This document shows, piece by piece, positions 1-11,474 of a stretch of 12,005 nt of DNA. The DNA is from Chlamydiae bacterium RIFCSPHIGHO2_12_FULL_49_11 (GTDB taxonomy: Bacteria; Chlamydiota; Chlamydiia; Chlamydiales; 2-12-FULL-49-11). The stretch covers positions 1,727-13,731 of the forward strand of contig MGLW01000056.1 of assembly GCA_001794905.1 (NCBI GenBank). The letters are read 5' to 3'. The position numbers and the translations under genes are program-made. The first letter of the stretch is position 1. Each line of letters begins with the position of its first letter. The notes under the pieces were generated by a model. The model ran no database searches. It worked only from the letters and a program-made list of their open reading frames with translations, and had not been told where the DNA came from.

Positions 1-1398
1 TTTATCGGAAGAGTGCAAAAGAGGCGGGCAAAACACTCTTTTTGGGCCGGCATATTCGGCGCGCGCCGCATCTTGTGGAGCGGAGGGCACCACACTGCCT
101 TGTATCAGGCTATTGCAGGGGTGTCGCAACTTTCCGAAGCACCGCTATGGCAGCGGAAAAAGGCGACGGGTCCATTCCGTATCGGAATCAACCCGGGAGC
201 AAGCTACGGATCAGCAAAATGCTGGCCGCCCGAGTATTTTCGCACGTTGATCAGGCTGATTCTTGAGACAATGCCCCGGGCTGAGGTGCGGTGCTTCGGC
301 TCGTGGGAGCAGCGGGATTTGGTGGCATCGATCACGGAAGGGTTTGATGCAAGGGTACAAAATCAGGCGGGAGAGACGAGCCTCGGAGAGCTTATCGATG
401 AAATCGCTGCCTGTCATGTTTTTGTCACAAATGACAGCGGGCCGATGCATATTGCGGCGGGCCTGCACCTCTCGCTGATCGCCCTCTTCGGTTCCACTGC
501 GCCGGAAAGTACGGGGCCTTTTCCAAACGGGATCGTACTGACGGAAAAGGTCGAATGCTCGCCCTGTTTCAAACGGACGTGCCCGATCGATTTTCGATGC
601 ATGGTGCGCCTCACTCCCGAAAAGGTAGCACCTTTGCTGAGCAGGAAACTCATCGTGATTCTGGCAGGAGGAAAGGGAGTGCGTCTCGGGGCTGAAGGGC
701 CCAAGGCAGCGGTAGAGGTGCGAGGAAAAAAACTCTTTACCCACCTGCTCGAAAAGGTATCCTCCGAAGATAAGGTGATGGTGCTCACATCACCGCACAA
801 TGACGCTGCAACGCGGGAGATGGTCCGGCGGGAAAACCTGTATTTCTACGTAGGCAAAGAGTACCCTTCTTTTAACCGGGACCGGTCGGAGCTTTATTCC
901 GATGACCTCTTTCCGGAAGGGAACGGCGCTTTTCTCGACGGCCTCGAAGAGATGTGGCAAGAGGGGCTTCTCGACGACGTTGACCGGATTCAGGTGGTGC
1001 CGATAGACAATTACAGGGCGCCCGTGGGGCACAAGCTTTTTTTTGAAACCGAGAGTGACCTGGTGGTGCTGGAAACGGATAAGCTCTCCCCGGAAGAAAA
1101 GATGGGGGTGGTTCAAGTCAAAAACCGTCTTGACGTCCGGGAATACCTAGAGGGGCCGATCGAGTGCCCTCGCGGGTTTACCGGGATCTTCTCCTTCAAA
1201 GCGAGATGCCTGCCAAGTTTATTTTCTAAAACATTTCCCGAGCATGTCGTGGAAAAACGGGGAAGATTTCATAGTGAAAGATTTGCTTTTGATATTTTTC
1301 CTTACTTTGACTCGTTTTCTGTGGTGTATTTGCCCCGCGAGGAGTGCTTTATGCCGGTGAAAACACAGGAAGACCTTGTCAATGTGAACCGATTCTAA
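1..1398 (+). CDS. 5'-truncated fusion protein: GT9 (WaaF/heptosyltransferase II-like) C-terminal domain joined to a UAP-type UDP-sugar pyrophosphorylase-like domain
   Basis: Frame +1 is open from base 1, so the true start probably lies upstream of the window. GT9 motifs: IGINPGASYGSAKCWP (181-228), NDSGPMHIAA (from 430) and the Cys cluster CSPCFKRTCPIDFRC (556-600). With no stop in between, UAP/AGX-family motifs follow: ILAGGKGVRLG..PK (from 658), PEGNG (913-927), IDN (1003-1011), EKMGV, VREY, ERFAFD and REECFMPVK. Stop TAA at 1396-1398. Confidence 0.85.
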   Translation, partial: FIGRVQKRRAKHSFWAGIFGARRILWSGGHHTALYQAIAGVSQLSEAPLWQRKKATGPFRIGINPGASYGSAKCWPPEYFRTLIRLILETMPRAEVRCFGSWEQRDLVASITEGFDARVQNQAGETSLGELIDEIAACHVFVTNDSGPMHIAAGLHLSLIALFGSTAPESTGPFPNGIVLTEKVECSPCFKRTCPIDFRCMVRLTPEKVAPLLSRKLIVILAGGKGVRLGAEGPKAAVEVRGKKLFTHLLEKVSSEDKVMVLTSPHNDAATREMVRRENLYFYVGKEYPSFNRDRSELYSDDLFPEGNGAFLDGLEEMWQEGLLDDVDRIQVVPIDNYRAPVGHKLFFETESDLVVLETDKLSPEEKMGVVQVKNRLDVREYLEGPIECPRGFTGIFSFKARCLPSLFSKTFPEHVVEKRGRFHSERFAFDIFPYFDSFSVVYLPREECFMPVKTQEDLVNVNRF

Positions 1399-1410
1399 TA
1401 TACTATAGGT

Positions 1411-2406
1411 ATGGCTAAAGTCGGATTTTTAGGAACGGGAGCGTGGGGGATTACCCTTGCTGATTTGATCGCGAAGAATGGGCATGAAGTGCTTCTCTGG
1501 GGAATTGAGGAAGATGTGCTGGACAGCCTTGAAAAAGGCAAAGGCCACCCCAAATTTCCTGCTTTTCCCGTCTCTTCCGCCCTGCGTGTAGTGCGATCGC
1601 TCCAAGAAGTGGTGGAAGAATGCGACCTATTTGTGGAATGCGTTACTGCCAAAGGATTTAGACCTGTACTGGAAAAATTGTTTACATTGGGCGGCCTTGA
1701 CCGTCCCTTTATCATTACCTCGAAAGGGATCGAGCAGGAGACGGGGCAGCTCCTTGCTGAGGTGGCTTTGGAATATATCTCTTCCGATTTGATCGGATAC
1801 ATGAGCGGACCGACCCTTGCCAAAGAAGTCATGCAAGGGCAGCCGACCGCCGCTGTTGCTGCCGGAAAGAATCCCGAAATGCAAGAGCTCGTGTGCCGGC
1901 TGTTTGATTCGCCCACATTCTGTATTGAAACGAGTTTTGACATCATGGGCGTTGCTCTTGGCGGCGCCATGAAAAACGTGATTGCCATTGCGTCGGGGAT
2001 TGCCGAAGGGCTCGGTTTCGGACACAATACAAAAGCAATGCTCATCGTCCGGGGTCTACGTGAAATGTGCCGGATGGCAAAACTCAAAGGGGCCCGGGAT
2101 GAAACCTGTTACGGCCTCGCCGGAATCGGCGACCTCATCGTGACCGGAGTATCCAACCTCAGTCGCAATTTTCAGTTCGGCCGCTTTTTGGGGGAGGGAG
2201 TGGACATCGATGAGGCGCGTAAAAAAGTCGGCATGGTGATCGAGGGGGAATATACCGTTCTATCCGCGTATCGTCTCGGACAAAAAAATCATTTGGATTT
2301 GCCCATCACTTATGCTATGTACCAAGTCTTGTACGAAGGGAAAAATCCAAGGGAGGCGCTGCTTCATCTTCTGGAAGAGAGAGAAGCCGCTGCCGAAATA
2401 CAATGA
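1411..2406 (+). CDS. gpsA: NAD(P)H-dependent glycerol-3-phosphate dehydrogenase
   Basis: 331 aa. Rossmann motif GTGAWG plus SKG, SGPTLA, GGAMKNVIAIA, GLAGIGDL, SRN and IEG motifs typical of GpsA. Confidence 0.97.
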   Translation: MAKVGFLGTGAWGITLADLIAKNGHEVLLWGIEEDVLDSLEKGKGHPKFPAFPVSSALRVVRSLQEVVEECDLFVECVTAKGFRPVLEKLFTLGGLDRPFIITSKGIEQETGQLLAEVALEYISSDLIGYMSGPTLAKEVMQGQPTAAVAAGKNPEMQELVCRLFDSPTFCIETSFDIMGVALGGAMKNVIAIASGIAEGLGFGHNTKAMLIVRGLREMCRMAKLKGARDETCYGLAGIGDLIVTGVSNLSRNFQFGRFLGEGVDIDEARKKVGMVIEGEYTVLSAYRLGQKNHLDLPITYAMYQVLYEGKNPREALLHLLEEREAAAEIQ

Positions 2407-3926
2407 AACATAACGATACTCCGATTCCGCTCGAAGGAATGCCGATATTGACGGCTCATGAAATGGCCCGGATCGAACAAAGAGCCATTGCCGAAGATCC
2501 TTCTCTCGATGAATTGTTCATGGAAACGGCTTCCCGCGGAATGTTCGAGCTTGTGCTTGGCACGATACGCCAGAAAGACTTTTCCGATCATGCCATATTA
2601 GTGTGCGGCAAGGGGAATAATGCGGGGGATGCCTATACCATCGGGACCCTTCTCCTGGCCGAAAGTATCGAGGTCGATGCCTACCAGCTATTTCCTCTCG
2701 ACGAGTGTTCGAAACTGTGCCGGAAGCATGCTGCTGCATTTAAAAGCAGGGGTGGTGTCATTCATACGATTGCAAGACCGGAAGAAATGGAAATTCCGTC
2801 GAGACGAGATATCATCATTGACGGCATTGTGGGAACGGGATTTACGGGAACCTTGACCGGGCTTGCGTCCGATATCGTACAAAAAATTAACCGCTCCGAG
2901 AACTGTGTTTTTGCAATCGATATTCCTTCAGGCATTCACGGCGGTACGGGAGAAATCGGGGAGGCTGCGATCGAAGCCAATATCACCGCGTATCTGGGCG
3001 CTCTAAAAATCGGCCACCTGTATAACCAGGGGCTCGAAAATGTGGGCGATTTGTACCATATCGATTTTGGTTTGGAAACTCGTTTCTACGATGGCGCACA
3101 CTTTTTCGGGCACGTCATCAACCCCGAAATTTTGCGTCACAATCTACACAAACCACGCCGCAAGGCGCACAAGTATGAAGTAGGACAAGTAGCCGTCGTT
3201 GCAGGCAGCCCGAACATGCCGGGTGCGGCTGTTCTTGCGGCCAATGCCGCCCTGCGCTCCGGAGCGGGAATGGTGAAAGTATTCTCTTCGCCGGAAGCGA
3301 TTTCTAAAATGCACGGGCTATTTCCCGAGGTGATTTTGATTCCGATGGAACCGGAAGCGTTGCAGAATGAAATGCACCGCACCCGATCTCTTGTCGTCGG
3401 TCCCGGTCTGTCTCGGACGAAAGAAGCCGAACAACTTGTCCACCATATTTTCAAACTCAATGCTATGAAGGTGATCGACGGGGACGCCCTCTATTTTATG
3501 ACGGATAAACCTCCGCCCCGTTCGATTTTGACACCACACGAGGGGGAACTCAGGCGTCTTTTACATGCGGAACCTGAAGTAGGCCAGTTGGAGCTTGTCG
3601 ATCTGGCACAGAACTATGTCGATCGGCATGACGTCATTCTCGTTTACAAGGGGGCGCCGACTACCCTTTTTGCAAAAGGGCTTCCCAAGCTTGTATTTCC
3701 CTTCGGCAATCAGGGGATGGCAAAGGCGGGAATGGGAGATGTGCTTGCGGGGATGATAGGTGCCTTCCTCCTCTTTCACGACGACCTCCGCGAAGCGGCT
3801 GCGATGGGGACCCTCTTGCATCAACGTGCAGGCGACCATGTCCAAGCACGCTCTTCCATACACTCTCTCATTGCCTCCGATCTCATTGCCGATCTTGGCC
3901 CTTTATTTCATCACCTTGAGAAGTGA
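2403..3926 (+). CDS. nnr: Bifunctional NAD(P)H-hydrate epimerase/dehydratase (YjeF; NnrE-NnrD)
   Basis: 507 aa. YjeF_N motifs GKGNNAGD, IDGIVGTG and DIPSG. Carbohydrate-kinase-fold motifs GPGL, DGDAL, TPHEGEL and GMGDVLAG. The start overlaps the gpsA stop (ATGA at 2403-2406). Confidence 0.95.
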   Translation: MKHNDTPIPLEGMPILTAHEMARIEQRAIAEDPSLDELFMETASRGMFELVLGTIRQKDFSDHAILVCGKGNNAGDAYTIGTLLLAESIEVDAYQLFPLDECSKLCRKHAAAFKSRGGVIHTIARPEEMEIPSRRDIIIDGIVGTGFTGTLTGLASDIVQKINRSENCVFAIDIPSGIHGGTGEIGEAAIEANITAYLGALKIGHLYNQGLENVGDLYHIDFGLETRFYDGAHFFGHVINPEILRHNLHKPRRKAHKYEVGQVAVVAGSPNMPGAAVLAANAALRSGAGMVKVFSSPEAISKMHGLFPEVILIPMEPEALQNEMHRTRSLVVGPGLSRTKEAEQLVHHIFKLNAMKVIDGDALYFMTDKPPPRSILTPHEGELRRLLHAEPEVGQLELVDLAQNYVDRHDVILVYKGAPTTLFAKGLPKLVFPFGNQGMAKAGMGDVLAGMIGAFLLFHDDLREAAAMGTLLHQRAGDHVQARSSIHSLIASDLIADLGPLFHHLEK

Positions 3927-6900
3927 CCGGTATTTGTCGATCATAGAGGCGGCAAGGGGGGCGCATTCTTTTCCGAAGTCGCCGTAGCGCAAATATACCA
4001 CGACGACAAGTTCCGGAGAGGTGAATGTGTGGGCTTCCTTGAAAGAACCCGCGACGAACCAGGTGTCTTTGGTTAAGGCTGCCGGGACTTTGGCATTAAG
4101 ATACGGCTTGATCCGCTTTTCGGCGGTCGATGTTTTTCCGATCATGAAGGGGGCAAGTTTGCCGTAGATGTCCCTGAGCTCTTTTTGTTCGTGCAAGGTA
4201 CGGATGGCCGTTTTGCGTGCGGTACCTCCATTGCTGTTTACTACGCTGTAGAGTCCCTCCAGAATGAGCCGGCGGAGAGGCTCCGGAAGAAAGATGCGTG
4301 CTTGAATCTCCGTATGCAATCTTCTCACATACGGCTCATCGCTGCCCGTTTCCCCGGAAGTGAAGAGGGGGAAAAAAATCCCCATATTTTTGAGCGCTTC
4401 ACGGAAGGCAAATTCGGTGCGGAACAAGACCTGCTCTTTTTCTTGCGGTTCCAGGTTCAAAAGGTGCAATGCGATCCGAGGCACAACTACATTGCCCCCG
4501 TTCATAAAAGCCGACAGCATGACCGCCGTCTGCAGCGGGGTGGTAAGCAACGTGTGCTGGCCGATCGCAAAAGAATATAGATTGGAAGGGTTGTCGAACA
4601 GGTCAAACGGTACCTTGCCGGTCGCTTCGCGGTCGAGTTTAACACGGGTGGGAGAACCGAACCCCATTTTCATCGCACATTTTGAAAGGTCGGTCGGGAT
4701 GGACAAGTGGTCTTTTGCGAGAAGGGAAAAATAGAGATTGCTCGACTTTTCAAAGGCACCGCAGAGATCGATTTTTCCGATATTGGGATGGCTGCGCGGG
4801 AGGCGTCCCCCTTTATACCAGCGGCAGATGGGGGTGCCGGACAAAGTGTATCCCAAGACGGTACCGGCTTTCATCGACATGGAATAGGGCGGAGATGCAT
4901 CGACGATCACAAGCGGGTTGGGATCACCGGTATCCCGTTCAATTTTTTGTCTGGCCGCTTCATATCCGGTGACAATTTTGAAAATAGACCCCAGGGGGGA
5001 CGCCTCCTGAAATGCGGAGGATGTAGCAAAACCACAGCCGCCTGCAGGGTAGGCATGCAAAATCAAATCCTGCTCCGTCTGTTCTTTTCCCGGCTTTTGC
5101 CGGAAATGATACCGACCCACGAGAGACTCATCCCGTTCGTAAAAGGAGCGGCAGGCGCGGAAAAAGGCGCGTACTTGTTCGGAGTTGAATTCGGCTAGAA
5201 ATTGTTTCAACGCTTCGATTTCGACAGCGGAGGACTCCAGACTCTTGGAAATGATTTCTTGAATAAAAGGATTGAGCCCGGGTTGCAATCCGGCTCTTTT
5301 TGTGAGAAAGGCCTCTAGAAACAGTTCGCGATTTTGGTGGAAAAAAGGGCGGAAGAGAATCTCTTTTGCTTCTTCCAGATAGACGGTATAGGGTTTTTGA
5401 GAAGATTTCTTCTCTTTTTCTTCTTTTCTTTTTTGCTCTAAAAAATGGGTGAAATACGCCTCACGCCATGCGGGAAAGTCGGTTCGGGTAAAAATTTTTT
5501 CGGCGATCCGGTACACCTCTCCACGTGCCGTTATGACTGCTTGTTCCAGAGATCGGAAACGATCGGGAGAGAGGGTGCCAAACGATCCGAGAAATTCGGG
5601 TCCGGCAAGTTCTTTGGAAATGAGAACAGCACACAAATCACGAAGAAGGTCCCGGTCTTGCGTGCTCAAAGCGGGATTTTCTTCCTCGTCCGCTTTTATG
5701 CATAAGTTGAGGGTAGAAAAGGAGGAAATTATCCGGTCAACGTCGCTCCCTTTGGCTACCAGCTGGTGCACAAACCGTTTCCATGTCCATTTTTTCGGGG
5801 TGCTTCCCGGTTTGGGGATATTGTCCAGGCCGTCCCATAACCGGCGTACATATTCGGGAGTTTCGAGCCACATCCGGCGCCTGCTTGATTTTCCATGTGT
5901 GATGAAATCGGCAGGATCAAAGCCGGGATAGGAAGCAAGAGCCAGAATATCGCCGGAGGTAGGCTCGATCGCTACGATCGCCCCTCCGCATACCCACGGT
6001 CTGGGGAGGAATTTATGATCGGGAGAGCTTTTATAAAACCGTTTTTGCCTTTCGCTGTCGGATTGCATCAGGATCATTTCGGCATGTTTTTGCAACTGTG
6101 CCGCAAGGGTGAGAAAAAGCCTTCTGCCGCTGACCGGATTTTTGGAATCGGGGAGTTCCCGTATGGTGTTTCCCATGGGGTCGATTTCAAACCGTTTTTC
6201 GCCGAACCGGCCGGCAAGGTCGGCCTGAAATGTTCTTTCCACTCCGGCTTTGCCTTGCAGTGTGCCTACGAATTTCAGGTCGGTTTGGAGTTCATGAATC
6301 CTTTCCACCACCTGTATTTGCGACGTGAAACCGGCAGGAAGTGGAGAAGGGATCAACTCTTCCACATCCTGCATGTAGGCGAGGAGGCGGGATAATTCTT
6401 CTTTTTTACGGATGCCCGACTGAAAATCCATTTTTCCCAGATACCCCAACACAGAGGAAGCGGTTGTGCCTTCGGGGTAATGGCGGACGGGAAAAATTTT
6501 GGCTCTGAGGCCCGGCCACTCTTTTTCGAGAAACCGGAGTTTGTAGTAGGTTTGTTCGTCGACCGCCTCATAGACGGTGAAGAACATGGACGGGAAGATG
6601 GCTGCCTGGCTATAGATCAGGTCTACGATATCTGTGGGGTCCACATCGAACTGGCCTGCTAAAAAGCGGGCCAGTTTTTCGGTGTATTCTTTGCGCGGAA
6701 AAGTCCTGGTGCGTGTTTTTCCGTTCGTCTTCCACCGGATGCGGGGGATCGATAACAGATCTTCATACATGATGCCCACCGAATACGAAATTTTATTTGT
6801 CACCAAAACTTCGTTGAACCGGTCGCGGATCGTTCCTCGGAGCGGTTCGACAAAGACCGTCTTGTACTTGGGGCGCCTGGAGAGTTTTTCATACCGCTCG

Positions 6901-6998
6901 GTTGCCACGGTGGTCAAAAAGAAAAGACGTAGGGAAATGATGATGCCGATGATACCGAGAGCCGTATAAATTTTTTTTAATTTGAGTTCCAAAAGCAT
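3903..6998 (-). CDS. mrdA: Class B penicillin-binding protein 2, large chlamydial type
   Basis: 1031 aa. N-terminal TM segment, pedestal motifs RGTIRDR, RHYPEG and GKAGVE, and ILALASYPGFDP. Transpeptidase motifs SxxK (SIFK, 4977-4988), SxN (SSN, 4737-4745) and KTS (4128-4136), plus AIGQ and TPLQ. Confidence 0.92.
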   Translation of the reverse strand: MLLELKLKKIYTALGIIGIIISLRLFFLTTVATERYEKLSRRPKYKTVFVEPLRGTIRDRFNEVLVTNKISYSVGIMYEDLLSIPRIRWKTNGKTRTRTFPRKEYTEKLARFLAGQFDVDPTDIVDLIYSQAAIFPSMFFTVYEAVDEQTYYKLRFLEKEWPGLRAKIFPVRHYPEGTTASSVLGYLGKMDFQSGIRKKEELSRLLAYMQDVEELIPSPLPAGFTSQIQVVERIHELQTDLKFVGTLQGKAGVERTFQADLAGRFGEKRFEIDPMGNTIRELPDSKNPVSGRRLFLTLAAQLQKHAEMILMQSDSERQKRFYKSSPDHKFLPRPWVCGGAIVAIEPTSGDILALASYPGFDPADFITHGKSSRRRMWLETPEYVRRLWDGLDNIPKPGSTPKKWTWKRFVHQLVAKGSDVDRIISSFSTLNLCIKADEEENPALSTQDRDLLRDLCAVLISKELAGPEFLGSFGTLSPDRFRSLEQAVITARGEVYRIAEKIFTRTDFPAWREAYFTHFLEQKRKEEKEKKSSQKPYTVYLEEAKEILFRPFFHQNRELFLEAFLTKRAGLQPGLNPFIQEIISKSLESSAVEIEALKQFLAEFNSEQVRAFFRACRSFYERDESLVGRYHFRQKPGKEQTEQDLILHAYPAGGCGFATSSAFQEASPLGSIFKIVTGYEAARQKIERDTGDPNPLVIVDASPPYSMSMKAGTVLGYTLSGTPICRWYKGGRLPRSHPNIGKIDLCGAFEKSSNLYFSLLAKDHLSIPTDLSKCAMKMGFGSPTRVKLDREATGKVPFDLFDNPSNLYSFAIGQHTLLTTPLQTAVMLSAFMNGGNVVVPRIALHLLNLEPQEKEQVLFRTEFAFREALKNMGIFFPLFTSGETGSDEPYVRRLHTEIQARIFLPEPLRRLILEGLYSVVNSNGGTARKTAIRTLHEQKELRDIYGKLAPFMIGKTSTAEKRIKPYLNAKVPAALTKDTWFVAGSFKEAHTFTSPELVVVVYLRYGDFGKECAPLAASMIDKYRSLLKVMK

Positions 6999-7146: not shown

Positions 7147-7154
7147 GGCTTAAA

Positions 7155-7225
7155 GCGCCTGTAGTTCAATGGTAGAACAATAGCCTTCCAAGCTATTAGT
7201 GTCAGTTCGATTCTGATCAGGCGCT
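7155..7225 (+). tRNA. tRNA-Gly(TCC)
   Basis: Acceptor stem GCGCCTG/CAGGCGC, D stem GTTC/GAAC, anticodon stem ATAGC/GCTAT with loop CT-TCC-AA (anticodon 7187-7189), T loop TTCGATT and discriminator T. CCA is not encoded. Confidence 0.97.
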
Positions 7226-7255
7226 AGAAAAAAATTAAAAGTAGAGGAATTACCT

Positions 7256-8026
7256 TTGACCACGCAAGAACAAGAGAAAGAAACATATCAGCTCAGCGTA
7301 ACGATTAAAGACCTATTGGAATCGGGAGTCCATTTCGGCCATCAAACGCACCGTTGGAATCCGAAAATGGGTCAATACATCTACGAAGTGAGAAACGGCA
7401 TCCACATTTTGGATTTGTCCAAAACGATCCAGCAACTGAGGGCAGCATGCCATGTTGTCCGCGATGTAGTGGGCCGCAAAAAAAGCATCCTTTTCGTAGG
7501 AACGAAAAAGCAGGCTAAAATCGTCATCAAAGAGGTGGCGGAAGCGTGCGGTGAATTTTACGTATGCGAAAGGTGGCTTGGCGGCATGCTCACCAACCTC
7601 GTGACGATCCGGCAGTCGATCAAAAAACTCGAAAAAATCGAGAAAAAGGTGGCGGCGGGCGGCGAAGGACTCAAGAAAAAAGAAGTGTCGCGTCTTACCA
7701 AGCTGCAAGAAAAGCTTGAACGCAATCTGTCAGGTGTGCGTGCCATGCGCAAAGCGCCCGGACTTGTCATCGTCGTCGATCCGCATAAAGAACACATCGC
7801 GGTAGCCGAAGCGCGCAAGCTCGGTATCCCTGTGATGGCGATTACCGATACCAATTGCGATCCCGACCTCATCGACTATGTGATTGCCGGTAACGACGAC
7901 GCCTTGAAGAGTAACAAGGTAATGCTCGATGCCATTGCTAAAGCAATTGCCGACAAAAAAGAAAGTTTGGGGCTGGCCATCCGGCCTTCGAATGAAGAGC
8001 ACGAAGAAAAGCCGGAACAACGATAG
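7256..8026 (+). CDS. rpsB: 30S ribosomal protein S2
   Basis: Motifs GVHFGHQ, WNPKM, FVGTKKQA, RWLGGMLTN, DTNCDPD and GNDDA. TTG start with SD-like GAGGA at 7244-7248. Confidence 0.98.
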   Translation: MTTQEQEKETYQLSVTIKDLLESGVHFGHQTHRWNPKMGQYIYEVRNGIHILDLSKTIQQLRAACHVVRDVVGRKKSILFVGTKKQAKIVIKEVAEACGEFYVCERWLGGMLTNLVTIRQSIKKLEKIEKKVAAGGEGLKKKEVSRLTKLQEKLERNLSGVRAMRKAPGLVIVVDPHKEHIAVAEARKLGIPVMAITDTNCDPDLIDYVIAGNDDALKSNKVMLDAIAKAIADKKESLGLAIRPSNEEHEEKPEQR

Positions 8027-8036
8027 GGGGACGGGG

Positions 8037-8870
8037 ATGATTACTGCATCTTTGATTAAAGAATTACGGGAAAGAACGGGCGTCGGCATGGCAAAATGCA
8101 AAGAAGCGCTGGAAGAAACTTCCGGCGACATCGATGCCGCTATTGATTTTCTTCGCAAGCAGGGAGCCGCGTCAGCCGTCAAGAAGGCCTCGCGCGAGAC
8201 TAACGAAGGGTTGATCCGGTATAAAGAAATGGATGATGCTATTTTTATTCTTGAGCTCAATGCCGAAACCGATTTTGTGGTGAGTAACGAACGTTTCACA
8301 AAATTCCATGTCGATTTACTCGATGAAATGCACAAAGGAAGACCTCATTCACCGGATAGTTTGCTCCAGATGAAATCAACGCGAGAAAAATCCAAGACTC
8401 TCGATGAGCTCAGAAAGGAACTCATCAGCGTGATTGGGGAGAACATTGTTGTGTCACGGGCGATCACCGTAAAAAAAGAAAAAAACGCTTCTTACGGCGT
8501 ATATTCTCACATGGGCGGGAAAATTTTATGCCTCGTGGAACTTTCGGGAGGCACGGGAGCGGAAGCTTTGGCTCGAGAGATTGCGATGCATGTGGCTGCC
8601 GAAAGCCCTGAATATCTTGTAGCCGCAGATGTACCGAAAGAGGTTGTGGAAAAGGAACGAGAGATTGCCAAAAGCCAGGCGCCCGGAAATAAACCGCCGC
8701 AGATCATCGAAAAGATTATCGAAGGGAAGCTTAAGGCCTATTTCGATCAGGCGTGTTTGCTGAACCAAAAGTTTATCAAAGATCCCTCGATCACGATCGC
8801 CGACCTCGTGCAGAAGGCAGGCAAGGGGCTCGCATTGACCAAGTTTATCCGTGTACAGGTAGGGCAGTAA
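8037..8870 (+). CDS. tsf: Translation elongation factor Ts
   Basis: Start reassigned to ATG 8037 (MITASLIKELRERTGVGMAKCKEAL), 10 nt after the rpsB stop. ETDFV and IAMHVAA motifs. 277 aa. Confidence 0.97.
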   Translation: MITASLIKELRERTGVGMAKCKEALEETSGDIDAAIDFLRKQGAASAVKKASRETNEGLIRYKEMDDAIFILELNAETDFVVSNERFTKFHVDLLDEMHKGRPHSPDSLLQMKSTREKSKTLDELRKELISVIGENIVVSRAITVKKEKNASYGVYSHMGGKILCLVELSGGTGAEALAREIAMHVAAESPEYLVAADVPKEVVEKEREIAKSQAPGNKPPQIIEKIIEGKLKAYFDQACLLNQKFIKDPSITIADLVQKAGKGLALTKFIRVQVGQ

Positions 8871-8878
8871 GTAAGATT

Positions 8879-9616
8879 GTGCAACACAGTCAAAAACGAA
8901 TTATCCTGAAGCTTTCCGGTGAAGCGCTCATCGGAGATCAAAGTTACGGGATCAATTATCAGGCGTGCCATAACATCGGAAAGCTCATCGAAAAGCTTGC
9001 CGGCCACGAAATCCAGATCGGGGTTGTGATTGGCGGCGGCAATATTTTCCGTGGCCGTACTGCGGCCGATTTTGGTTTCGAGCGCACTCCCGCCGACCAT
9101 ATCGGCATGCTCGCAACCTGTATCAACGGTCTTGCGCTCCACCAAGTCCTCATCACTCTCGGATTGAAAACACGCGTCATGAGCTCGCGCAATGTCGACG
9201 GGATCATTGAGCATTTCAACTGGCATCAGGCCCACCTTGCCTTAGAGAAAGGGGTAGTGATGATTTTTGTAGGGGGCACAGGCAACCCCTATTTTACGAC
9301 AGACACCGCGGCGGCCCTCAGAGCAGCTGAAATGAAAGCTGACATGCTGGTCAAGGCGACGACCGTCGACGGGGTTTATGACAAGGATCCGAGGCTTAAT
9401 TCTGATGCCAAGCGCTATGACCGGATCACGTATGAAGAGGTGCTCCGCCTGGATTTGCGGGTGATGGATTCGGCAGCGATTGCTCTTTGCCGTGATAATC
9501 ATATTGAAATCCGAGTCGTACCCGTCTATGATGAAGAGGCGATTTTGAATGCGATCGTGCACCGAAGAGGGGGCACCAGGGTCACAAGCGGGGAGGATTC
9601 ACATGGCATTCCATAA
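8879..9616 (+). CDS. pyrH: Uridylate kinase
   Basis: Motifs KLSGEAL, GGGNIFRG, GMLAT, GTGNPYFTTD, DGVYDKDP and VMD. The likely start is GTG 8879, just after the tsf stop. 245 aa. Confidence 0.96.
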   Translation: MQHSQKRIILKLSGEALIGDQSYGINYQACHNIGKLIEKLAGHEIQIGVVIGGGNIFRGRTAADFGFERTPADHIGMLATCINGLALHQVLITLGLKTRVMSSRNVDGIIEHFNWHQAHLALEKGVVMIFVGGTGNPYFTTDTAAALRAAEMKADMLVKATTVDGVYDKDPRLNSDAKRYDRITYEEVLRLDLRVMDSAAIALCRDNHIEIRVVPVYDEEAILNAIVHRRGGTRVTSGEDSHGIP

Positions 9617-10154
9617 AAAAGAAATTCAGGACAAAATGCAGCATGCGTTTGAACATTTGCAGTCCGAGTTCAATGCGCTGAGGACAAGCCGCGTCAATCC
9701 TTCCATGCTCGACCATGTCAAGGTGGATGCTTACGGAAGCGAGATGCAGCTCAAGGCGCTGGCGACCGTTTCGGTTCAGGATCGGCAGCTGGTGGTTTCA
9801 CCCTTTGACCCTTCCCTTGCCGCTTCGATCAGCAAGGCGATCCAGCAGACCAACATGGGGCTCAACCCCATCCTGGAGCGCAACGTGATTCGGGTACCGG
9901 TACCACCCCTTTCGGAAGATTTACGCAAAGTCATTGCCAAAGATGCGAAAGACAAGGCCGAGAAGGCAAAAGTCGTCGTTCGTGAAGTAAGGCGCAAGGG
10001 AAATGATCTCATTCGCGATGCCAAGCAGAAAGGGGACCTCACCGAGGACCTCCAGAAGAAATCGGAAAAAGAAGTGCAACTGCTTACCGATGAGTACTGC
10101 GAAAAAATCGACAAGCTTTTTGTGCAGAAAGAAAAGGAGATTCTTACAGTTTAA
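9603..10154 (+). CDS. frr: Ribosome recycling factor
   Basis: ATG 9603 with GGAGG at 9592-9596, overlapping the pyrH end by 14 nt. Motifs LRTSRVNPSMLD, YG, PFD, VPPLSED and VREVRR. 183 aa. Confidence 0.96.
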   Translation: MAFHKKEIQDKMQHAFEHLQSEFNALRTSRVNPSMLDHVKVDAYGSEMQLKALATVSVQDRQLVVSPFDPSLAASISKAIQQTNMGLNPILERNVIRVPVPPLSEDLRKVIAKDAKDKAEKAKVVVREVRRKGNDLIRDAKQKGDLTEDLQKKSEKEVQLLTDEYCEKIDKLFVQKEKEILTV

Positions 10155-10186: not shown

Positions 10187-10203
10187 TGCTAGTGAAATAA
10201 TTT

Positions 10204-10278
10204 GGCCCCATCGTCTAGCCCGGTCCAGGACACAAGATTTTCATTCTTGCAACAGGGGTTCGAATCCCCTTGGGGTCA
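10204..10278 (+). tRNA. tRNA-Glu(TTC)
   Basis: Acceptor stem GGCCCCA/TGGGGTC, anticodon stem CAAGA/TCTTG with loop TT-TTC-AT (anticodon 10240-10242), T arm AGGGG-TTCGAAT-CCCCT. CCA is not encoded. Confidence 0.97.
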
Positions 10279-10281
10279 ACA

Positions 10282-10305
10282 AGAGCAAGTGGCAGAACTT
10301 GCTCT
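10282..10305. repeat. Perfect 9-bp hairpin in the inter-tRNA spacer
   Basis: AGAGCAAGT-GGCAGA-ACTTGCTCT. Confidence 0.85.
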
Positions 10306-10312
10306 CTAAAGA

Positions 10313-10384
10313 GAGCCTTTAGCTCAGCGGTAGAGCATCTCCCTTTTAAGGAGAGGGTCGATGGTTCAAATCCATCAAGGCTCA
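10313..10384 (+). tRNA. tRNA-Lys(TTT)
   Basis: Acceptor stem GAGCCTT/AAGGCTC, D stem GCTC/GAGC, anticodon stem TCTCC/GGAGA with loop CT-TTT-AA (anticodon 10345-10347), T arm GATGG-TTCAAAT-CCATC. CCA is not encoded. Confidence 0.97.
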
Positions 10385-10607: not shown

Positions 10608-11474
10608 TTGAGATTATTTATACGATTCCTCATTTTCCTTTTTTCCTTGTTCTGCATATGCAGTGCTCAGGCCGATCATTGGAACGGGCTGGAATATGCA
10701 TACAATTCGTCTGTTCAAATGTCCCATGCAGAATGGGTATTGAATAGCCTCCCCCTCGCCGGCAATGAAAATATCCTCGATGTGGGGTGCGGCAACGGAA
10801 AATTGACTGCTCGTCTTGCCCAAAAAGTTCCGGACGGAATCGTGATCGGAATCGACCCTTCCGATTCCATGTTAGCTGGTGTGTTGCAAATGCAGGCATC
10901 AACCCGTAATTTAACATTCCTGAAAGCATCGGCAGAATCTTTTTCTCTCCCCTACCAATTTGACCATGTCATTGCAATTCATGTCATGCACTGGATACAA
11001 GAGCAGGAAAAAGCTTTGGCAAACATTTTCGCACACTTGAAACCCAATGGGAAGGTGCATATCATTCTGGCTCCCTCTAAAGAGGGTTTGCCTTTTTATA
11101 CCGCATTGAAAAACACCATGCATGAGTGGAAAGATGATTTTACCGGTTTTGTCAACCCCCAACAAACCTTTGATTTGGAAACCTACCGCACCTTAATGGT
11201 TCGTGCAGGCTTCCATATCGATTCAATCCATTACGTTTATCACAAATCAATGCATGAAAATCGAGATGCCTTGCAACAATGGATCAAGCAATGGCTCCCG
11301 CACAGAAAGCACCTTCCTCCGGAAAAACAAAATGCCTTTTTGGATTCACTCATGCAATATTACCTTGCGGCCATGAATATCGATCCTCAACAAAATAGCC
11401 CCATCCCTTGGGGAGAATATGTGCTTATCGTACACGGAACAAAACCAGCACCAACGGGAAAAATTCCAGGCTGA
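10608..11474 (+). CDS. Class I SAM-dependent methyltransferase (Tam-like) with predicted N-terminal signal peptide
   Basis: Motif I ILDVGCGNG (10773-10799), GIDPSDSML, FDHVIAIHVMHWI and LKPNG, plus a Tam-like W-x4-Y element (HWNGLEY). The hydrophobic N-terminus ends in AQA. The TTG start is uncertain. Confidence 0.85.
   Translation: MRLFIRFLIFLFSLFCICSAQADHWNGLEYAYNSSVQMSHAEWVLNSLPLAGNENILDVGCGNGKLTARLAQKVPDGIVIGIDPSDSMLAGVLQMQASTRNLTFLKASAESFSLPYQFDHVIAIHVMHWIQEQEKALANIFAHLKPNGKVHIILAPSKEGLPFYTALKNTMHEWKDDFTGFVNPQQTFDLETYRTLMVRAGFHIDSIHYVYHKSMHENRDALQQWIKQWLPHRKHLPPEKQNAFLDSLMQYYLAAMNIDPQQNSPIPWGEYVLIVHGTKPAPTGKIPG

What the first reader, a model, noticed from the sequence alone, without database searches (positions are those of the whole stretch)
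1..1398. GT9 (WaaF-like) glycosyltransferase fused in frame to a nucleotide-sugar pyrophosphorylase
Seen: one stop-free frame runs from a GT9 C-terminal domain (ending ...RCMVRLTPEKV, about 627) through a linker of about 6 aa into the UAP-family start KLIVILAGGKGVRLG (646 onward). Established: characterised WaaC/WaaF enzymes use ADP-heptose, whereas UAP/AGX enzymes make UDP-GlcNAc. Chlamydiaceae carry a stand-alone UAP next to gpsA and have heptose-free LOS. Inference: this is either a donor-synthesis and transfer channelling enzyme that adds a non-canonical sugar to the LPS core, or a streamlining fusion of two neighbouring genes. I do not know of this architecture being described.
Basis: partly seen in the sequence, partly recalled or inferred. 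Interest (0 to 1): 0.72.

Follow-up and report, generated by a model that had tools for sequence, protein, structure and literature searches.

The report
Recurrent chlamydial heptosyltransferase–UAP neighbour fusion
In a family of environmental chlamydiae, a likely LPS heptose-adding enzyme is fused to what is likely the cell's only UDP-GlcNAc-making enzyme; the two halves likely work independently, because relatives that lack the heptose genes have lost or decayed the first half while keeping the second intact.

Summary
The fusion is real: one 551-aa frame (86 aa lie upstream of the window), bridged without differences by contigs from 3 runs in 2 studies, and shared by 19 of 22 genomes of this Chlamydiales family. 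Most related families carry the same genes separately, usually as neighbours (waaF-like, uap, gpsA, nnr). The GT9 half passes the heptosyltransferase II cut-off, and the genome has gmhA, hldA, hldC, hldD and two further heptosyltransferase-like GT9s. The C-terminal half is a minimal UAP/NagU-type uridylyltransferase, the only such domain found, in a genome with no full GlmU. A natural experiment argues against channelling: in 12 relatives without gmhA, the GT9 half has lost its catalytic motifs (9) or is gone (3), while the UAP half stays intact. Chlamydial UAPs fused several times independently, also to a different upstream GT9. Best reading: streamlining fusion of operon neighbours. Open points: the family's UAP lacks the Gln196 and Asn327 equivalents, all 19 fused genomes lack the UGP3-like enzyme, and the dead GT9 remains under purifying selection. 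Ten literature searches showed no description of the architecture.

The parts
1..639 (+). GT9 (GT-B fold) WaaF/HepII-like domain, window part; the N-terminal 86 aa, with the PNWVGD motif, lie upstream of the window
   Evidence: PF01075 E 4e-29; full protein P0127 TIGR02195 142.4 bits vs cut-off 134.6; best PDB sequence hit E. coli WaaF 1psw E 4e-21; Foldseek 1psw E 1.3e-16
430..450 (+). NDSGPMH motif, matching NDSGxMH of E. coli WaaF (role in nucleotide-sugar binding recalled); lost in all 9 genus-g2 relics
556..600 (+). Four-cysteine motif CSPCxxxxCPIDFRC at the GT9 C-terminus; metal binding is a guess, untested; lost in g2
   Evidence: invariant columns in alignment A1
616..648 (+). Junction: last GT9 helix runs directly into the first UAP strand; the UAP N-terminal domain is absent
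   Evidence: model helix 279-286, strand 288-294 in P0002 numbering; bridged by contigs of 3 runs
646..1398 (+). Minimal (about 250 aa) UAP/AGX1/NagU-type nucleotidyltransferase domain
   Evidence: PF01704; profile of 19 chlamydial domains hits UAP/AGX1 at E 1e-47 to 1e-58 against UGPases at E 1e-24 or weaker; top Foldseek hits are AGX1/AGX2
667..705 (+). GGxGxRxGxxxPK signature (AGX1 G110-K122 equivalents, including R115 and K122)
   Evidence: UAP motif as given in PMC9332809
853..855 (+). Gly at the position of AGX1 Gln196; none of the 22 family genomes keeps Gln here
1177..1179 (+). Phe at the position of AGX1 Asn327 (Tyr in the other 21 family genomes)
1411..2406 (+). gpsA, NAD(P)H-dependent glycerol-3-phosphate dehydrogenase; conserved downstream neighbour
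   Evidence: NF000942 338 bits vs cut-off 257; synteny
2403..3926 (+). nnr/yjeF, NAD(P)H-hydrate epimerase/dehydratase; overlaps the gpsA stop; conserved neighbour

Best explanation
[quoted passage not shown] Shown: the frame, both folds, the conserved catalytic motifs, the family-wide fusion, the separate adjacent genes in other families, and the gene inventory. Inferred: both activities, the absence of channelling, and the history. The likely history is a fusion in or near the family's ancestor that removed the UAP N-terminal domain; genus g2 then kept a catalytically dead GT9 after losing the heptose genes, and genus g5 deleted the GT9 half.
For: Fused in 19 of 22 family genomes. Not fused in any of the 18 other-family genomes that have both genes; 9 of these have them directly adjacent and 4 have one gene between. 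Full protein passes TIGR02195. G000 has gmhA, hldC, hldA and hldD, a HepIII-like GT9 over cut-off, a HepI-like GT9 below cut-off and kdtA. gmhA was not found in g2 (0 of 9) or g5 (0 of 3), and hldC not in g2 (0 of 9). In g2 the GT9 half has lost PNWxGD, the His, AKxW, NDSGPMH and the Cys motif; g5 has no GT9 match (0 of 3). The UAP half keeps the R115, K122, G222, N223, D253, G290, E303, Y304 and K407 equivalents in all 22 family genomes, with dN/dS about 0.05 in the closest g2 pair. No full GlmU in 0 of 41 genomes. GlmS, LpxA and MurA match in 5 of 5 tested, MurA in G000 cut by a contig end, and a stand-alone GlmU-type acetyltransferase is present. bioRxiv 10.64898/2026.06.23.733835 shows that the S. 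aureus homologue NagU makes UDP-GlcNAc but not UDP-Glc, and proposes this acetyltransferase-plus-NagU pairing for PVC bacteria. Fusions recur: P0131 and P0132 fall outside the family's clade (AU p 0.0002), and 17 proteins join UAP to a different GT9.
Against: No activity was measured. The UAP half lacks the Gln196 equivalent in 22 of 22 family genomes and the Asn327 equivalent in 22 of 22; both positions are listed as substrate-binding in PMC9332809 (insect numbering Gln197, Asn327). gmhB was not found in 5 of 5 genomes tested with either of two models, including the unfused G040. glmM was not found in 0 of 22 family genomes, so a PGM-type mutase would have to stand in. The dead GT9 in g2 is still under purifying selection (dN/dS 0.11-0.15), so the fusion is not wholly neutral. 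Repeated fusion to GT9 genes could reflect a benefit beyond adjacency. All genomes are incomplete drafts (68-100%). The position of G000 inside the family is unresolved, so its short junction may be a separate event.
Confidence: 0.66

Rival explanations
1. The halves are independent, but the minimal UAP domain has broadened specificity: it makes UDP-GlcNAc and also UDP-glucose (or accepts other NTPs), which made the chlamydial UGP3-like enzyme dispensable; the GT9 half may also tether it at the inner membrane.
For: The UGP3-like protein was found in 0 of 19 fused genomes, 3 of 3 unfused g5 and 18 of 19 other-family genomes (name from the Atlas, and PMC7935935). It is missing from its usual place beside prfB in G000. 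No GalU over cut-off in 5 of 5 tested. Gln196 and Asn327 equivalents are replaced family-wide. In RmlA, Q83D/S changes the NTP preference (PMC9415975; that Q83 is the equivalent position is recalled). g5 is nested among fused lineages (AU p 0.013) and its UGP3 looks inherited, which implies several separate losses.
Against: g5 has the same altered pocket yet keeps UGP3. Asn327 is also replaced in other chlamydial UAPs that keep Gln196 (G022; P0290, P0291, P0294). RmlA-type enzymes in 4 of 5 genomes tested or host import could supply UDP-Glc. S. aureus NagU does not use Glc-1-P. Kin are not independent, so 0 of 19 is a few events.
Confidence: 0.2
2. One reading: the C-terminal half makes an unusual nucleotide sugar and channels it to the GT9 half, which adds a non-heptose sugar to the LPS core.
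For: One polypeptide with no linker and a model pTM of 0.75; two changed substrate-contact positions in the UAP half; repeated fusion of UAP to GT9 genes; gmhB not found.
Against: GT9 integrity follows the ADP-heptose genes, not the UAP. The altered UAP pocket is shared by genomes with a dead or absent GT9. The independent fusions P0131 and P0132 keep Gln196 and Asn327. The domain is the only UAP found, so it is needed for UDP-GlcNAc.
Confidence: 0.07
3. The UAP half is catalytically impaired and serves as a scaffold; UDP-GlcNAc comes from the host or from another nucleotidyltransferase.
For: Loss of Gln196 and Asn327 equivalents, loss of the N-terminal domain, glmM not found.
Against: All catalytic positions examined are invariant; strong purifying selection; kept as a stand-alone gene in g5; GlmS and the acetyltransferase are retained.
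Confidence: 0.05
4. Assembly artefact or a recent private read-through.
For: The contig has an N gap inside this gene, and one cluster member (P0128) diverges after the junction.
Against: The gap is about 630 bases from the junction; 3 runs bridge the junction; 19 other fused proteins at 30-38% identity.
Confidence: 0.01

Closest known systems
WaaF/RfaF, ADP-heptose:LPS heptosyltransferase II (GT9; E. coli 1psw; TIGR02195)
   Same: GT-B fold, PxWxGD, AKxW and NDSGxMH motifs, passes the TIGR02195 cut-off, occurs with ADP-heptose genes and HepI- and HepIII-like paralogues
   Different: Shorter (about 300 aa), carries a C-terminal four-Cys motif, fused to a nucleotidyltransferase; far below the RfaF model NF008162 cut-off (93.7 vs 569); donor and acceptor untested
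UAP1/AGX1 UDP-GlcNAc pyrophosphorylase and its bacterial form NagU (S. aureus; bioRxiv 10.64898/2026.06.23.733835)
   Same: Same fold and signature, catalytic positions kept, sole uridylyltransferase candidate in a genome with only the acetyltransferase half of GlmU
   Different: About 250 aa core only, no N-terminal domain, fused to GT9, Gln196 and Asn327 equivalents replaced; His331 is absent in all chlamydial sequences examined
Chlamydial fusions of a second, divergent GT9 with UAP (P0280-P0283, P0285-P0297) and independent waaF-like fusions (P0131, P0132)
   Same: GT9 followed by UAP in one chain, formed from operon neighbours
   Different: Separate origins; a different GT9 in the first set; their UAP halves are longer and keep Gln196 where read
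Bifunctional GlmU and HldE
   Same: Two enzymes of envelope-precursor metabolism in one chain
   Different: Those join steps of one pathway (recalled); here the halves likely belong to different pathways

Membership tests
GT9 / heptosyltransferase II (TIGR02195) | Score over the curated family cut-off | tested here: met
   P0127 142.4 bits vs 134.6; 7 of the 8 other fused proteins scanned also pass, the g2-type P0142 does not
GT9 / heptosyltransferase II (TIGR02195) | GT-B fold like WaaF | tested here: met
   Model pLDDT 83, Foldseek 1psw E 1.3e-16, TM 0.71 by target length
GT9 / heptosyltransferase II (TIGR02195) | Motifs shared with WaaF (PxWxGD, AKxW, NDSGxMH) | tested here: met
   Aligned to 1psw; their catalytic roles are recalled
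GT9 / heptosyltransferase II (TIGR02195) | ADP-heptose pathway in the genome | tested here: inconclusive
   gmhA, hldA, hldC matched strongly but below cut-off, hldD over cut-off; gmhB not found
GT9 / heptosyltransferase II (TIGR02195) | Transfers heptose from ADP-heptose to Hep-Kdo-lipid A | not testable with these tools
   Needs assay or complementation
UAP/AGX1/NagU | PF01704 domain closer to UAP than to UGPase or USP | tested here: met
   Profile E 1e-47 to 1e-58 for UAPs, 1e-24 or weaker for UGPases, 1e-20 or weaker for USPs; top Foldseek hits AGX1/2
UAP/AGX1/NagU | GGxxTxxGxxxPK signature and R115, K122, D253, K407 equivalents | tested here: met
   the signature's Thr is Val here
UAP/AGX1/NagU | Sugar and N-acetyl contacts N223, G290, E303, Y304, F381, F383 | tested here: met
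   All six kept in the window protein (lists)
UAP/AGX1/NagU | Gln196, Asn327 and His331 substrate contacts | tested here: not met
   Gly, Phe and Phe in the window protein; so it is filed as UAP-like, not as a proven UAP
UAP/AGX1/NagU | UTP + GlcNAc-1-P gives UDP-GlcNAc | not testable with these tools
   Needs assay
Donor-synthesis/transfer channelling enzyme | The two halves are kept or lost together | tested here: not met
   GT9 dead in 9 and absent in 3 genomes with an intact UAP

The most novel reading that the evidence does not exclude
This family runs its UDP-sugar supply on one stripped-down, roughly 250-aa pyrophosphorylase with a rebuilt base and sugar pocket that makes both UDP-GlcNAc and UDP-glucose (replacing UGP3), held at the membrane site of LPS assembly by a GT9 domain that is kept as a pseudoenzyme tether even after heptose synthesis is lost; recurrent GT9-UAP fusions across Chlamydiota would then be convergent selection for that tether.
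Probability: 0.17. Interest if true: 0.62.

Novelty: new variant of a known kind. Interest (0 to 1): 0.4.

Why it matters
It fixes an annotation blind spot. Where databases name these fused proteins at full length, they call them heptosyltransferases only, so the likely sole UDP-GlcNAc synthesis step of a whole chlamydial family is hidden, and the dead g2-type copies are still named heptosyltransferases. It gives a clean natural series (separate, fused, pseudoenzyme, deleted) for studying gene fusion in reduced genomes. It also offers a minimal UAP/NagU core with two unusual pocket substitutions, directly testable for specificity and possibly useful for nucleotide-sugar synthesis. It does not look like a new kind of system.

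Tried and rejected
Artefact at the junction: rejected. Channelling of a non-canonical sugar: disfavoured. A single origin of all waaF-like/UAP fusions: rejected (AU p 0.0002). Genus g5 as a never-fused sister group: borderline on three local genes (p 0.05), rejected on RpoB/RpoC plus five neighbouring proteins (p 0.013, 21 genomes); both are quick LG+G4 trees without a mixture model. The first tree run timed out and was redone with FastTree, leaving out 7 genomes with fewer than two markers. The grouping of the window protein with P0021 carries a long-branch warning and is not relied on. A single-sequence fold of the g2-type protein P0142 failed (pLDDT 34.5), so the relic's fold is untested. 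No RNA holder listed. The promoter/terminator scan gave chance-level counts. otsA was not found in 5 of 5 genomes, so it does not explain UGP3 retention in g5. The BrnQ-UAP fusion P0284 is a single sequence and may be an artefact. Earlier findings: none returned. Literature searches that showed no description of the architecture; the others sought residue or family facts. InterPro and CDART were not available.

Full report
Observation. Frame +1 is open from base 1 to the stop at 1396-1398. The window lies on contig C56 of a 1.26-Mb, 82%-complete genome. The gene begins 258 bases upstream, giving 551 aa, and the stretch just before window base 1 reads N. A gap-free 551-aa database protein, P0127, has the same frame. 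Pfam finds Glyco_transf_9 and UDPGP over cut-off. Contigs from 3 of 4 runs laid (2 studies) cross the junction with no differences; one may be the source sample. An AlphaFold2 model (20 sequences, pLDDT 83, pTM 0.75) shows the last GT9 helix running straight into the first strand of the second domain. Foldseek returns human and mouse AGX1/2 and E. coli WaaF.

Distribution. A protein search returned 19 other proteins of 567-628 aa covering both halves at 30-38% identity, among 120 listed. One cluster member is named 'lipopolysaccharide heptosyltransferase II [Chlamydiota bacterium]'; the family name is not given by any search. Among 41 genomes, the fusion is in 19 of 22 of the window's family (G000; g2 9, g3 5, g4 2, g6 1 cut by a contig end, g7 1). 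Genus g5 (3) has a stand-alone UAP of 246-263 aa with no GT9 upstream. Of 19 genomes from other families, one has neither gene and none of the other 18 is fused: 9 have the two genes directly adjacent, 4 have one gene between, 5 have them further apart. gpsA and nnr usually follow.

GT9 half. P0127 scores 142.4 bits on TIGR02195 (cut-off 134.6) and aligns to WaaF at PxWxGD, AKxW and NDSGxMH. G000 has gmhA, hldC and hldA (strong matches, below cut-off), hldD (over cut-off), kdtA, a HepIII-like GT9 over cut-off and a HepI-like GT9 below it. gmhB was not found in 5 of 5 genomes with either of two models, including an unfused one. gmhA was found in G000, g3, g4, g6, g7 and 18 of 19 other-family genomes, but in 0 of 9 g2 and 0 of 3 g5. 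hldC was found in 0 of 9 g2; two g5 genomes give only weak matches. PF01075 matches in 1 of 9 g2 (weakly, the relic itself) and 0 of 3 g5, while kdtA matches in 22 of 22. In all 9 g2 proteins the GT9 half has lost every motif above and the four-Cys motif. It is relaxed but not neutral: dN/dS 0.11 and 0.15 for its two lobes against 0.05 for the UAP half in the closest pair; the other 11 pairs are near or at synonymous saturation. GT9 integrity thus follows the heptose genes.

UAP half. A profile of 19 chlamydial domains hits UAP/AGX1 at E 1e-47 to 1e-58, UGPases at 1e-24 or weaker. It is the only PF01704 match in G000, and 0 of 41 genomes have a GlmU over cut-off. GlmS, LpxA and MurA match in 5 of 5 tested, and a stand-alone GlmU-type acetyltransferase is present. 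The NagU preprint (10.64898/2026.06.23.733835; abstract, passages and sections 5 and 15 read, supplements not seen) shows UDP-GlcNAc synthesis by the S. aureus homologue, reports homologues in Chlamydiales, proposes the acetyltransferase-plus-NagU route for PVC bacteria, and has no occurrence of 'fusion' or 'fused'. The R115, K122, G222, N223, D253, G290, E303, Y304 and K407 equivalents are kept in all 22 family genomes (numbering, residue lists from passages of PMC9332809 and PMC3610160). Against a simple reading: Gln196 is kept in 0 of 22 family genomes but in 16 of 16 other-family UAPs aligned, and Asn327 in 0 of 22 against 15 of 16. glmM was found in 0 of 22 family genomes and 13 of 19 others; one PGM-type mutase remains.

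History. The family is one clade. g5 falls among fused lineages (SH-aLRT 99; AU p 0.013 on 3493 columns; p 0.05 on three local genes), so it likely lost the GT9 half secondarily. The place of G000 within the family is unresolved. A search of 1.84 billion representatives found two more waaF-like/UAP fusions, P0131 and P0132, which fall outside this clade (AU p 0.0002); each is a one-member cluster. A search for longer proteins found 17 that fuse UAP to a second, divergent GT9. That GT9 is a separate gene just downstream of waaF in 4 genomes and matches in 5 of 41. In the UAP tree these 17 fall in two places, with an unfused genome among them. So chlamydial UAP has repeatedly fused to whichever gene lay upstream.

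Unexplained correlation. A second, 650-820-aa UDPGP-family protein, UGP3-like (PMC7935935 passages name UGP3 as the non-GalU UDP-glucose pyrophosphorylase of two chlamydiae), was found in 0 of 19 fused genomes, 3 of 3 g5 and 18 of 19 others. g5's copy lies beside prfB, as in 7 other-family genomes, and groups with a sister family's copy; G000 lacks it at that place. No GalU passes cut-off in 5 of 5 tested. This is the basis of the broadened-specificity rival. g5 has the same altered pocket and keeps UGP3, and RmlA-type enzymes (4 of 5 tested) or host import are alternatives.

Verdict. A real, family-wide, recurrent fusion of two known enzyme types. Most likely (0.66) a streamlining fusion of neighbours with independent activities; broadened UAP specificity 0.2; channelling 0.07. 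All activities are inferred. Searches of an open-access library showed no description of the architecture (listings seen); subscription papers and domain-architecture databases were not searched. New variant of a known kind, interest 0.4.

Noticed in passing
P0280-P0283, P0285-P0297; separate genes at L049:5235-6179, L046:5167-6045, L052:5678-6574, L043:5590-6558: A second, divergent chlamydial GT9 (DSG kept, the following His replaced) sits just downstream of waaF and is fused to UAP in 17 proteins. Its donor is unknown; it is a better candidate than the window's gene for using UDP-GlcNAc.
   Followed up: partly
L022:5279-6994 and the other 8 genus-g2 loci: Catalytically dead GT9 kept in frame with UAP and under purifying selection in genomes with kdtA but no heptose genes found; suggests a Kdo-only LPS core and a non-catalytic role for the relic.
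   Followed up: partly
whole genomes G000-G022, G025, G028, G031, G035, G040: glmM not found in 0 of 22 family genomes nor in six other families, although glmS is kept; one PGM-type mutase remains.
   Followed up: partly
L195:1804-3747 (G013) and homologues: UGP3-like pyrophosphorylase beside prfB: found in 0 of 19 fused and 21 of 22 unfused genomes.
   Followed up: partly
L162:711-1994 (G000 C35): The HldA-like heptose kinase carries an extra C-terminal stretch of about 115 aa with no NCBIfam match at the threshold used; gmhB was not found in this clade, so the phosphatase step is unassigned.
   Followed up: no
window 556-600: Four-Cys motif at the GT9 C-terminus, conserved in intact chlamydial waaF-like proteins; a possible metal or iron-sulfur site (guess; search gave nothing relevant).
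   Followed up: no
P0298-P0328 (most rows): UAP-type domain fused to a phosphohexomutase, some named from Fibromonadales; a pathway-consecutive fusion, unlike the window's.
   Followed up: no
window 3903-6998 (-), 7256-10154 (+), 7154-7226, 10203-10384, 10608-11474: Ordinary neighbours: a 1031-aa PBP-type transpeptidase, ORFs that read as rpsB-tsf-pyrH-frr (recognised from sequence, not scanned), tRNA-Gly, tRNA-Glu and tRNA-Lys, and a SAM methyltransferase.
   Followed up: no
L001:2-1444: An outer-membrane efflux protein gene lies directly upstream of the fused gene in G000; this neighbour was not seen in the other 40 loci examined.
   Followed up: no
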